Source: a virus
Taxonomy: Duplodnaviria > Heunggongvirae > Uroviricota > Caudoviricetes
Strand: one strand, 5' to 3'
DNA length: 64,000 nt
IMG/VR virus record: IMGVR_UViG_2877251553_000001
Coordinates: 1 to 64,000 of that record
In this document: piece after piece, positions 13,265 through 14,593 of the stretch
Numbering within the stretch: position 1 is the first letter of the stretch
How the letters are laid out: each line of letters opens with the position of its first letter
Position numbers and translations under genes: made by a program
The notes under the pieces: generated by a model
Seen by the model: only the letters and a program-made list of their open reading frames with translations
Told to the model about the DNA's origin: nothing
The model's database searches: none

Positions 13265-13747
13265 TTAAGTATTCATGTTTTTCTTCTCTTCAAACAATTC
13301 CTTTATTTTCAATGGAATGAAAGTTGATTGTATGAATGAGAAACATGTTAAAAATGAGATTGAATATGCAATAGTGTTTTTTGTATATTCAAAATAAATA
13401 CCTGAATGTGTTTTATCCTTGGATAAAAGATAAAATACAAATATTAATGCAAGTGTAATTATATACATCAAGAATAGAGTATAGCTTTTTACAAAGCGCA
13501 TATAAAATCGAGTGCTCTGGTTGGCTTTGTCTAATGCATTAAGTGATTTCGAAATTGAGGAGTTCTCACCAGACATAGTAATGACTAGCAATAAAAAACC
13601 GGATAGGATTGAGAAAACATTTGCAACAAGATTTAATGCGTCATTGTTATTTGTTAAGCTGTTTGTGAGATATTTTGAGAAAAAGAAGGAGGCTAGGAAG
13701 TTTCCTGTGGTAATTATAATTCCCGTCCAGTTATAATCTTTAAACAT
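13265..13747 (-). CDS. multi-pass membrane protein, unknown function (160 aa)
   Basis: Strongly hydrophobic segments (about 4 predicted TM helices); AT-rich; second gene of a two-gene minus-strand operon. Confidence 0.6.
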   Translation of the reverse strand: MFKDYNWTGIIITTGNFLASFFFSKYLTNSLTNNNDALNLVANVFSILSGFLLLVITMSGENSSISKSLNALDKANQSTRFYMRFVKSYTLFLMYIITLALIFVFYLLSKDKTHSGIYFEYTKNTIAYSISFLTCFSFIQSTFIPLKIKELFEEKKNMNT

Positions 13748-13771
13748 ATGGCCTCCCCGTTTTTAAGTATA

Positions 13772-14593
13772 TTATAACTCATTTGTGACAAAATGCTCTA
13801 AAATTTCATGAGCATATTTGCTGGAAATTGTTTGCGAGCCGTATGGTAACGTGTAGTAAATCTTTGTAAGTTTCATGTCATCGCTAGTGATTTTCTCTCC
13901 TTTTTTAGTTTCAAAGTAAAAGTCACTGTTTAAATCAGATATCCAAGGCGTCGGATTGTTTTCAATTGATGCAGCAACGGCAGGGTTTCCTCTGGCATCG
14001 ATAGTAAAATGGCCACTTATTCCTGTTTGTTTTAATTTTGGCTCTTTTTTTACAAACACAGATAAGAAACTAGGCTTGTTAACAAAATCTGATTCATGCA
14101 CGTTGAAATTCACATGTACAGCGCGCAAACCATCATCTTTGACTTTTTGGATTACATTTTTCTTTAAGATAGCTGACGGTATAATATCTATGCCATAGCA
14201 TTTGAAGATTTTTGCTATTTTGACTTCACTCCAGTTAGTGGATATTTGAAGGAGTGAAGCAATTTGATTATCCTTAACCATAAAGAAGGCATGTAAATTG
14301 TCAAAATTTTCAACATCTAACAAATCTTTAGTGTTAGGTTTATTTGGGGTGATCGACACTTCTTCTTTCGGATTGTATAAAGAAAAATGTAAGTAATGGA
14401 TATTACCTTTAGTGCTAAATTCTTTTAATTTTAAATGCCTGTTAGTTGATAACTGGATTATGGAACCCTGTACAAATTTATTATTTGTTGATATTTGCTG
14501 AAATAAATTACCCTTCCCGTCAAGGTTCACATTAAAAGCCCTAACTTGACATTTCTTTGTTAAATTGTTTTTTTTGGTATTAGAAAAGTTCAT
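13772..14593 (-). CDS. hypothetical protein, unknown function (273 aa)
   Basis: AT-rich ORF, Lys/Asn-rich, no recognisable motif; 24 nt upstream of the membrane-protein gene. Confidence 0.6.
   Translation of the reverse strand: MNFSNTKKNNLTKKCQVRAFNVNLDGKGNLFQQISTNNKFVQGSIIQLSTNRHLKLKEFSTKGNIHYLHFSLYNPKEEVSITPNKPNTKDLLDVENFDNLHAFFMVKDNQIASLLQISTNWSEVKIAKIFKCYGIDIIPSAILKKNVIQKVKDDGLRAVHVNFNVHESDFVNKPSFLSVFVKKEPKLKQTGISGHFTIDARGNPAVAASIENNPTPWISDLNSDFYFETKKGEKITSDDMKLTKIYYTLPYGSQTISSKYAHEILEHFVTNEL

What the first reader, a model, noticed from the sequence alone, without database searches (positions are those of the whole stretch)
13265..14593. AT-rich two-gene cargo operon between Q and the late genes: 273-aa protein plus 4-TM membrane protein with no recognisable domains
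This locus is far more AT-rich than the surrounding prophage, sits on the opposite strand between the Q antiterminator and the late operon, and is dispensable for phage functions. That position is a classic moron/accessory site in lambdoid phages. A soluble protein followed by a small multi-pass membrane protein is the layout of many abortive-infection and anti-phage systems (membrane effector plus sensor), and neither protein matches a family I recognise. This is my best candidate for an undescribed system.
Basis: partly seen in the sequence, partly recalled or inferred. Interest (0 to 1): 0.8.

Follow-up and report, generated by a model that had tools for sequence, protein, structure and literature searches.

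The report
Divergent RexAB-like phage exclusion module
The AT-rich two-gene insert after the prophage's Q gene is most likely a highly diverged relative of phage lambda's classic RexA/RexB exclusion system, from an unannotated family that current defence-gene finders miss.

Summary
Two minus-strand genes, A (273 aa, 13772-14593) and B (160 aa, four membrane helices, 13265-13747), form a 32% GC insert between Q and the late-control region. Pfam, NCBIfam and PADLOC recognise neither protein.

Clear homologues of the pair (30% identity, E 8e-41) sit directly after cI and before N in E. coli phages PhiR11_1 and 2G7b. That is the exact rexA-rexB slot of lambda. No sequence-level link to RexA or RexB was detectable (hhalign probability below 1%).

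The Q-to-late-promoter junction is a cargo hotspot. It occurs empty, with this pair, or with a different two-gene cargo.

Verdict: a new, sequence-unrelated variant of the RexAB type, probably a sensor plus membrane-channel abortive-infection system. Its function is untested. Interest is moderate.

The parts
13772..14593 (-). Gene A, 273 aa: cytoplasmic, basic (pI 9.2), predicted RexA-fold protein and proposed sensor
13265..13747 (-). Gene B, 160 aa: four-helix inner-membrane protein and proposed channel effector
   Evidence: ORF. The AF2 model has pLDDT 81.6 with helices at 7-32, 35-63, 71-110, 117-141 and 144-159. The central loop and C-terminus are rich in K/R, which suggests N-in/C-in topology. 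The motif DALNLVANVFSILSGFLLLVIT in helix 2 is nearly invariant. B is always immediately downstream of an A homologue.
13748..13771 (-). A-B intergenic spacer of 24 nt with a GGGGAGG ribosome-binding site 5-6 nt before the B start codon
   Evidence: Read directly from the sequence. The short spacer and shared strand indicate one operon. Lambda rexA-rexB are 15 nt apart.
13241..13262 (.). Perfect 9-bp hairpin (AGAAGCCGC-TTCA-GCGGCTTCT) between the convergent stop codons of Q and B. It is part of the insert.
   Evidence: Read from the sequence. It is absent from the empty site L019. The alternative cargo in L018 carries its own, different hairpin at the same place. It has no T-run, so its role as a terminator or RNA 3' end stabiliser is inferred.
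14594..14650 (-). 5' leader of A with an AAGGGA ribosome-binding site and a candidate sigma-70 promoter: TTGCGT (14650 to 14645), 17 nt, TACAAT (14627 to 14622)
   Evidence: Read from the sequence. This is my own reading. The consensus scan did not list the site because its -35 hexamer matches only 3 of 6 positions. Inferred, not shown.
12874..13236 (+). Left flank: late antiterminator Q. The likely true start is the ATG at 12889.
   Evidence: PF06530 at 1.5e-45. It is annotated as an antiterminator Q family protein in matching genomes. The same Q family flanks the pair in 16 of 16 Q-junction prophage loci with both flanks visible.
14628..14721 (+). Right flank: a conserved block that directly follows Q where the site is empty. 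It ends in an intrinsic terminator (stem 14702-14714 plus a T7 run). It is probably the late promoter, Q-utilisation site and tR' region.
   Evidence: The block is shared by the window, L018 and L019. The terminator was found. SfV and Ayreon records annotate a terminator at the homologous place. The identification as pR'/qut/tR' is inferred.

Best explanation
The insert at about 13240-14629 is a self-contained two-gene RexAB-type phage exclusion (abortive infection) module. It comes from a protein family with no detectable sequence similarity to lambda RexA or RexB. Proposed mechanism, by analogy with lambda RexAB, Sbash gp30/gp31, CarolAnn gp44/gp43 and P. putida RexABpp: the module is transcribed from its own promoter, antisense to Q, and is probably expressed in the lysogen. 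A is a cytoplasmic, basic, two-domain RexA-fold protein, probably a DNA-binding dimer. It senses a cue made early in infection by another phage, either a phage protein or a protein-DNA replication/recombination intermediate. Activated A engages the K/R-rich cytoplasmic loop of the four-helix membrane protein B. B then opens as an ion channel or pore, the membrane depolarises, ATP falls, growth stops and the infection aborts. Shown here: gene structure, conservation as a pair, predicted fold, synteny with rexAB, and the hotspot nature of the site. Inferred: expression in the lysogen, A-B contact, channel activity and anti-phage phenotype.
For: (2) Domain order. The model has a beta-rich N-terminal part (1-131), a middle unit of four strands and four helices (139-229), and a C-terminal strand plus helix (243-271). 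RexA has a split globular domain (1-139 and 248-279) and a dimerisation domain of four strands and four helices (143-234).
(3) Architecture. A is 273 aa followed by B, a 160-aa four-helix membrane protein. RexA is 279 aa followed by RexB at 144 aa. Both soluble proteins are basic.
(4) Synteny. P0182 is 30% identical to A over the full length (E 8e-41). With its 163-aa B-like partner it lies between cI and N in an E. coli prophage and in the plaque-forming phage PhiR11_1. That is the rexA-rexB slot. A Budvicia homologue (27% identity) is also next to the repressor gene.
(5) The pair behaves as a mobile unit. It occurs at the Q junction in 16 of 16 prophage loci with otherwise mosaic flanks, next to an integrase in Providencia, and at a non-prophage chromosomal spot in Haemophilus. 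The partner gene is always present.
Confidence: 0.65

Rival explanations
1. A is a RexA-like DNA-binding protein whose main job is to tune the prophage's own lysogeny-to-lysis decision, with B as a membrane-bound modulator. Lambda RexA is reported to bias the CI/Cro switch. Here A might act on the adjacent Q/late-promoter switch. Defence would be secondary or absent.
For: [quoted passage not shown] The module abuts the late-control block, and its candidate promoter diverges from and overlaps that block. In Enterobacterales it is always linked to one Q family.
Against: The same pair also occurs far from any Q gene: next to cI, next to an integrase, and in Haemophilus chromosomes without a prophage. 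This argues for an autonomous function. Many prophages with the same Q and late block lack the module, so late control does not need it. Linkage to Q is explained equally well by homologous recombination through conserved flanks.
Confidence: 0.12
2. B is a superinfection-exclusion or injection-blocking membrane protein (Sie/Imm-like) and A is an accessory or regulatory factor. Protection would then be non-abortive and act at DNA entry.
For: B is a small inner-membrane protein encoded by a prophage moron. B is the more conserved partner, with a nearly invariant helix 2. No structural evidence ties B to RexB specifically.
Against: This does not explain the strict coupling to a 273-aa RexA-fold cytoplasmic protein across about 20-100% identity. 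The cI-slot prophage already carries a separate SieB gene. No Sie or Imm family match was found.
Confidence: 0.08
3. The resemblance of A to RexA is convergent or an artefact of the predicted model. The pair would then be an unrelated two-gene cargo, for example a membrane toxin with its regulator (addiction module) or a lysogenic-conversion function.
For: There is no sequence-level homology to RexA or RexB at any sensitivity tried. The Foldseek TM-score is 0.35. IS5-family elements have inserted next to or into A in 3 of about 10 E. coli genomes that carry it, as might happen with a costly or toxic gene.
Against: Two structure-comparison methods rank RexA first out of 48,164 and 350,542 chains, and RexA's own published neighbours follow. 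Domain boundaries are collinear. Homologues lie in the rex slot. It is unlikely that all three agree by chance.
Confidence: 0.12

Closest known systems
Bacteriophage lambda RexA/RexB exclusion system (Pfam PF15969/PF15968; PADLOC PDLC02339/PDLC02340; RexA structure PDB 8TWQ)
   Same: It is a two-gene operon in the order soluble protein then membrane protein. Sizes are similar: 273 and 160 aa here, 279 and 144 aa in lambda. The predicted fold of A is closest to RexA, with the same split-globular plus dimerisation-domain order. B is a four-helix membrane protein with a K/R-rich central loop. Both are lower-GC cargo in a lambdoid prophage. Homologues of the pair occupy the cI-to-N slot.
   Different: No sequence similarity to RexA or RexB is detectable. 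In the window the module lies between Q and the late-control block, antisense to Q. It is not in the cI transcript. B has an extra C-terminal amphipathic helix and a motif of its own in helix 2. No phenotype is known.
Pseudomonas putida prophage P1 RexABpp (PP_5643/PP_5644), Rosendahl et al. 2026, PMC12894663
   Different: RexApp was linked to RexA by HHpred (98% probability). The A family was not linked by hhalign here. RexABpp lies near a CI-like repressor. I did not have the PP_5643/PP_5644 sequences, so a direct relationship to the A/B family was not tested. A profile search of 1.84 billion proteins found only 23 A-family representatives; the ten looked up by source name are from Enterobacterales, Pasteurellaceae or unnamed sequencing runs.
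Actinobacteriophage Rex-like systems: Sbash gp30/gp31, CarolAnn gp44/gp43, Butters gp30/gp31
   Same: Each has a soluble RexA-like protein plus a four-TM protein with cytoplasmic termini and a functionally important central cytoplasmic loop. They defend against heterotypic phages. A 165-aa Sbash protein is among the better BFVD matches to the model of B (rank 8, prob 0.92, TM 0.52). I did not verify that this protein is gp31.
   Different: Their soluble proteins are longer (337-372 aa). The hosts are Actinobacteria. Gene order and position vary. In Butters the soluble protein is the effector and the membrane protein restrains it.
RdgC recombination-associated DNA-binding protein (PDB 2OWL)
   Different: A has no Pfam RdgC match. 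RdgC has no membrane partner. RdgC has an additional tip domain and forms a closed ring.

Membership tests
Lambda RexAB exclusion system | The soluble component belongs to the RexA sequence family (Pfam PF15969, PADLOC PDLC02339) | tested here: not met
   Pfam and PADLOC give no hit for A or its distant relatives, while the same models score lambda RexA at 1e-97 and 9e-110. hhalign of A-family profiles against RexA, as a single sequence or a 25-sequence profile, gives probability 0.2% or less.
Lambda RexAB exclusion system | The soluble component has the RexA two-domain fold (split globular domain plus a dimerisation domain of four strands and four helices) | tested here: met
Lambda RexAB exclusion system | The membrane component belongs to the RexB sequence family (PF15968, PDLC02340) | tested here: not met
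   No Pfam or PADLOC hit. hhalign of B-family profiles against RexB gives probability 0.1-0.3%.
Lambda RexAB exclusion system | A small four-transmembrane inner-membrane protein is encoded immediately downstream of the soluble protein in the same operon | tested here: met
   B starts 24 nt after A on the same strand and has its own ribosome-binding site. The model has four long helices. Homologues show four hydrophobic segments, with a K/R-rich central loop and C-terminus. The pairing is conserved in every locus examined.
Lambda RexAB exclusion system | Located in the immunity region downstream of cI and expressed with the repressor in lysogens | tested here: not met
   In the window the pair lies between Q and the late-control block, antisense to Q. 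Deeper-branching homologues (P0182 in E. coli phages PhiR11_1 and 2G7b; P0185 in Budvicia) do lie directly after the repressor gene. Expression was not testable.
Lambda RexAB exclusion system | Excludes superinfecting phages (classically T4 rII) by RexA-triggered, RexB-dependent membrane depolarisation that is sensitive to stoichiometry | not testable with these tools
   This needs plaque assays, membrane-potential dyes and overexpression tests.
Lambda RexAB exclusion system | The soluble component is a dimer that binds DNA non-specifically | not testable with these tools
   A is basic (pI 9.2 against 8.6 for RexA).
DUF4747 (the motif reported as shared by Sbash gp30 and lambda RexA) | Significant match to the DUF4747 profile | tested here: inconclusive
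   UniRef names one Haemophilus parainfluenzae member of the A superfamily (P0268) a DUF4747 family protein. Gentile et al. 2019 report DUF4747 in both Sbash gp30 and RexA. Pfam and NCBIfam scans of P0268 and nine other family members at E up to 10 showed no DUF4747 match.
RdgC family | Match to the RdgC sequence family, and a stand-alone recombination-associated gene | tested here: not met
Phage holins / lysis proteins (considered for B because of the neighbouring lysis cassette) | Match to a holin family, and co-orientation and co-transcription with endolysin in the late operon | tested here: not met
   B has no holin Pfam or PHROG match. It lies on the opposite strand, upstream of the late-control block. 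The prophage has its own holin, lysozyme and Rz genes at 16306-17936. The lysis cassettes next to the pair differ between loci.
DUF4064 (PF13273) | Score at or above Pfam's gathering threshold | tested here: not met
   B scores 24.0 bits against a cut-off of 32.1. A few homologues carry a precomputed PF13273 label. The family is an uncharacterised membrane family and tells nothing about function.

The most novel reading that the evidence does not exclude
The A/B family is not a descendant of RexAB. It would be an independently assembled sensor-plus-channel system in which B is a new channel or pore family, defined by the invariant helix-2 motif A42, F45, L48, G50-F51-L52, I56 and the R84-F85 pair in the loop. 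In addition, its placement divergent from the late promoter would couple its expression or activation to the Q-dependent late switch. For example, the module could read late-promoter activity of a competing or co-resident lambdoid phage, or shut down the host when the prophage's own late programme misfires.
Probability: 0.12. Interest if true: 0.7.

Novelty: new variant of a known kind. Interest (0 to 1): 0.5.

Why it matters
RexAB is the oldest known abortive-infection system, and its trigger and the way RexA gates RexB are still unresolved. According to a 2026 paper (PMC12894663), only five Rex-like systems have been described. This family adds a compact enterobacterial variant with a very different sequence but apparently the same architecture. 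It lives in the same host and phage background as lambda, so lambda genetics can be applied to it directly.

Residues that stay invariant across about 20-100% identity give concrete targets for working out how the sensor talks to the channel. These are helix 2, the RF motif at the end of the central loop of B, and a handful of positions in A.

The result also shows that PADLOC v2 and Pfam miss Rex-type systems. It also shows that the Q-to-late-promoter junction of this Q family is a cargo hotspot that can be mined for more candidates, such as the unrelated two-gene cargo in strain FCI54.

Tried and rejected
- **Sequence-profile searches.** Pfam, NCBIfam, PADLOC and PHROGs gave nothing informative for A or B, nor for distant family members.
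- **PDB sequence searches.** A-family profiles found no meaningful hit.
- **Profile-profile comparison with RexA and RexB.** hhalign of A1 and A3 against lambda RexA and against a 25-sequence RexA profile, and of A2 and A5 against RexB, all gave probability below 1%. Sequence homology could not be shown.
- **Sequence bridge through distant relatives.** An HMM search of 1.84 billion representatives found only 23 family members, and none of the members scanned carries a RexA Pfam match.
- **DUF4747 lead.** The UniRef name could not be reproduced.
- **Fold search for B.** The BFVD search gave no significant match. RexB was absent from the top 50. A Sbash 165-aa protein appeared at rank 8, but I could not confirm it is gp31. 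My guessed accession was a different phage, Cosmo.
- **Holin or lysis role for B.** Rejected on strand, position and lack of family match.
- **Promoter scan.** Promoter-like sites are not enriched over shuffles (4 found against 7.6 expected). The proposed promoter of A is my own reading and falls below the tool's threshold.
- **Literature.** Searches for the WP accessions, the PHROG number, PhiR11 and Q-junction defence hotspots found no description of this family.
- **Tai systems** (PMC11364771). Checked and found unrelated.

Full report
**1. What is in the sequence**

Two ORFs lie on the minus strand at the reported coordinates. A is 13772-14593 (273 aa). B is 13265-13747 (160 aa). They are 24 nt apart, and a GGGGAGG ribosome-binding site precedes B.

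GC is 0.325 for A and 0.294 for B. The neighbouring genes have 0.48-0.55 and the whole window 0.50.

Upstream on the + strand are RusA, KilA-N, DUF968 and the late antiterminator Q (12874-13236; PF06530, 1.5e-45). Downstream on the + strand are:
- a conserved non-coding block ending in an intrinsic terminator (14702-14714 plus a T7 run);
- a small winged-helix ORF (14819-15037);
- an N6/N4 DNA methylase (15187-16239);
- holin, lysozyme and Rz.

**2. No sequence library recognises the proteins**

Pfam, NCBIfam and PADLOC give no significant hit for A or B. B has only a sub-threshold DUF4064 match. A belongs to phrog_23561, which has unknown function. RefSeq annotates both as hypothetical proteins, WP_016236632 and WP_016236631.

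PADLOC does contain RexA and RexB models. They score lambda's own proteins at 9e-110 and 8.6e-61 but detect no member of the A/B family.

**3. The pair is a conserved, mobile unit**

A has 59 clusters and B has 136 clusters at 90% identity, all in Enterobacterales and all at least 47% identical to the query.

In 16 of 16 prophage loci with both flanks visible, the arrangement is the same. These come from Citrobacter, Enterobacter, E. coli, Pantoea-type and Yersinia. A is followed by B, the pair is convergent with a PF06530 Q gene, and it lies just before the lysis cassette. The replication, lysis and packaging modules around it differ from locus to locus.

Among 5,426 complete E. coli genomes, about 10 carry the pair: 8 at 99% or more DNA identity and 2 at 87%. 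Megablast with the window sequence and tblastn with the 30%-identical homologue P0182 found the Q-junction variant in none of the 50,697 phage records.

A profile search of 1.84 billion representative proteins found only 23 family representatives. The distant ones (19-43% identity; alignment A3) still carry a B-like partner with the same helix-2 motif:
- Haemophilus, at a chromosomal non-prophage spot;
- Providencia, next to an integrase;
- one metagenomic contig.

**4. The site is a cargo hotspot**

I searched with a query made by joining the Q side to the downstream side. Many E. coli prophages have the two parts contiguous, that is, an empty site. In L019, Q is followed by 222 bp and then the small winged-helix ORF.

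Others hold a different antisense two-gene cargo at the same point. In L018 this is an 87-aa plus a 246-aa protein with no Pfam match and only a weak PADLOC match to DndH (E 0.0032).

Alignment by eye puts the insert at about 13240-14629. The insert brings its own perfect 9-bp hairpin (13241-13262) between the convergent stop codons. The shared right-hand block (from about 14628) directly follows Q in empty sites and ends in the terminator. I infer that it is the late promoter, Q-utilisation site and tR' region. The cargo would then sit between Q and the late promoter, not inside the late transcript.

Upstream of A on the minus strand I read a candidate promoter: TTGCGT, 17 nt, TACAAT (14650 to 14622), followed by an AAGGGA ribosome-binding site. 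The scan tool did not list this site, and promoter-like sites are not enriched in the region. This part is inference.

**5. What A is**

The AlphaFold2 model was built from 37 homologues without templates. It has pLDDT 80.8 and pTM 0.74.

Foldseek against 350,542 PDB chains ranks lambda RexA (8twq_B) first. The match has E 3.4e-3, probability 0.98 and 296 aligned columns, so it spans the full length. TM is only 0.35.

Adams et al. 2024 (PMC11077077) list RdgC, that same epimerase, IML3 and CHL4 as the structural relatives of RexA. The structural neighbourhood of A therefore reproduces that of RexA.

The domain limits also agree:

| Region | A model | RexA |
|---|---|---|
| N-terminal globular part | 1-131 | 1-139 |
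| Unit of four strands and four helices | 139-229 | 143-234 |
| C-terminal return to the globular domain | 243-271 | 248-279 |

The low global TM-score is what one would expect if the two domains are hinged. RexA has a hinge loop and a swivel loop and is thought to open on DNA binding. 8TWQ was released in 2024, after AF2's training data (my knowledge), so the model was not learned from it.

**6. What B is**

The model of B (pLDDT 81.6) has four long helices and a C-terminal amphipathic helix. Relatives show four clear hydrophobic segments. The longest loop (62-84) and the C-terminus are rich in K/R, which by the positive-inside rule puts the central loop and both termini in the cytoplasm. Sbash gp31 is described with this same cytoplasmic-termini, central-loop topology, the loop being essential there, and RexB likewise has four predicted transmembrane domains.

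Across the whole superfamily the invariant positions cluster in three places:
- helix 2: A42, F45, L48, G50-F51-L52, I56;
- the end of the central loop: F81, R84, F85;
- helix 3.

The BFVD fold search gave nothing significant (best E 0.037). RexB was not in the top 50. A 165-aa Sbash protein was at rank 8, and I did not verify its identity.

**7. The synteny argument**

P0182 is a 283-aa E. coli protein found on several hundred contigs. It is 30% identical to A over the full length (BLASTP E 8e-41).

P0182 and a 163-aa partner carrying the B motif lie directly downstream of cI and upstream of N. The map reads cro, cI, A-like, B-like, N, sieB, ral, cIII, kil, gam, bet, exo. The deposited annotation of phage PhiR11_1, which grows on MG1655, shows the same order, and phage 2G7b carries the same protein.

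This is exactly where lambda has rexA-rexB. A Budvicia homologue (27% identity) with a 165-aa partner is also adjacent to the S24 repressor gene.

The family therefore replaces rexAB in the immunity region of some lambdoid phages. The clade in the window (43-100% identity) has moved to the Q junction.

**8. What could not be shown**

There is no sequence-level homology to RexA or RexB.

One UniRef label, "DUF4747 family protein", on a Haemophilus member hints at a sequence bridge, because DUF4747 is reported in both Sbash gp30 and RexA. Pfam and NCBIfam scans did not reproduce it.

Expression, dimerisation, DNA binding, contact between A and B, channel activity and anti-phage phenotype are all untested.

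**9. Mechanism proposed**

By analogy with lambda RexAB, Sbash gp30/gp31, CarolAnn gp44/gp43 and P. putida RexABpp, I propose the following.
1. A is a cytoplasmic, basic, probably dimeric DNA-binding sensor.
2. A cue from an infecting phage activates A.
3. A engages the cytoplasmic loop of B.
4. B opens as a channel or pore.
5. The membrane depolarises, ATP falls, growth stops and the infection aborts.

I put about 0.8 on the pair being the structural and architectural counterpart of RexAB. I put about 0.65 on the whole statement, including the defence function.

The rivals are a role in the prophage's own switch (0.12), entry exclusion of the Sie type by B (0.08), and a coincidental fold resemblance with an unrelated function (0.12).

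**10. Novelty and interest**

The kind is known: RexAB-type abortive infection. The family is not annotated and Pfam and PADLOC do not detect it. I found no paper on it in the held library. A 2026 paper counts only five described Rex-like systems.

The variant differs from lambda's system in sequence in both proteins. In the window's clade it also differs in genomic position and probably in regulation. I rate it a new variant of a known kind, with interest about 0.5. It would be useful for Rex mechanism work and for improving defence-system finders, but it is not a new principle.

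Noticed in passing
L018 2158-3158 (E. coli FCI54, NZ_CM172717.1), homologous to the window's insertion point 13237/14629: The same Q-to-late-promoter site holds a different antisense two-gene cargo: an 87-aa protein followed by a 246-aa protein. It has its own 3' hairpin. It has no Pfam hit and only a weak PADLOC DndH match (E 0.0032). It is another uncharacterised candidate at this hotspot.
   Followed up: partly
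L028 2187-3167 and L029 3173-4767 (E. coli genomes carrying the module): IS5-family elements sit about 190 bp upstream of A in two pig isolates and truncate the 5' end of A in strain WEM25, where the late genes are also deleted. That is 3 of about 10 E. coli genomes that carry the module. This could reflect the IS5 target preference for AT-rich DNA or selection against the module.
   Followed up: partly
window 8009-8197 (+) and 58264-58491 (-): Two copies of an isrK Hfq-binding sRNA next to a C4 antisense RNA, in opposite orientations. This suggests a second prophage or prophage remnant in the right-hand part of the window.
   Followed up: no
window 1369-1444, 42810-43008, 50129-50195, 61224-61340: tRNA-Thr (CGT) lies near the left end and may be an attachment site. 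Rfam also matches IS009 sRNA, int-alpA RNA and an ALIL pseudoknot (the IS3-type frameshift element). These indicate further mobile elements in the window.
   Followed up: no
window 14819-16239 (+): Before the holin, the DNA after the terminator block encodes a small winged-helix protein (sub-threshold TrmB/MarR/DprA-WH matches, annotated as TrmB family in some genomes) and an N6/N4 DNA methyltransferase (PF01555, 2e-42). This pair is also present at empty sites.
   Followed up: partly
window 14277-14304 (-), inside gene A: The best sigma-70 consensus match in the region (TTGACA, 16 nt, TATGGT; 10 of 12) lies inside the coding sequence of A. It recalls the pLIT promoter inside lambda rexA (my knowledge), which transcribes rexB alone. 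Promoter-like sites are not above the shuffled expectation here, so this may be chance.
   Followed up: no
B residues 36-57 (window about 13577-13642, minus strand) and alignments A2/A5: Helix 2 of B (DALNLVANVFSILSGFLLLVIT) is nearly invariant across Enterobacterales and recognisable down to Haemophilus (NDAMNLIANTFSILSGFLFIVIT). It is far more conserved than the rest of either protein. It is a likely pore-lining or gating element.
   Followed up: partly
P0268 (Haemophilus parainfluenzae; cluster of P0187; locus L013 6001-6864): UniRef labels this distant A-family member a DUF4747 family protein. [quoted passage not shown] The current Pfam and NCBIfam scans did not reproduce the label.
   Followed up: partly
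L013 7962-9152 (Haemophilus locus): In Haemophilus the A/B-like pair sits in a chromosomal spot next to an AAA_14/DUF4143 ATPase gene and split methionine-synthase fragments, with no prophage genes nearby. This may be a small defence islet.
   Followed up: no
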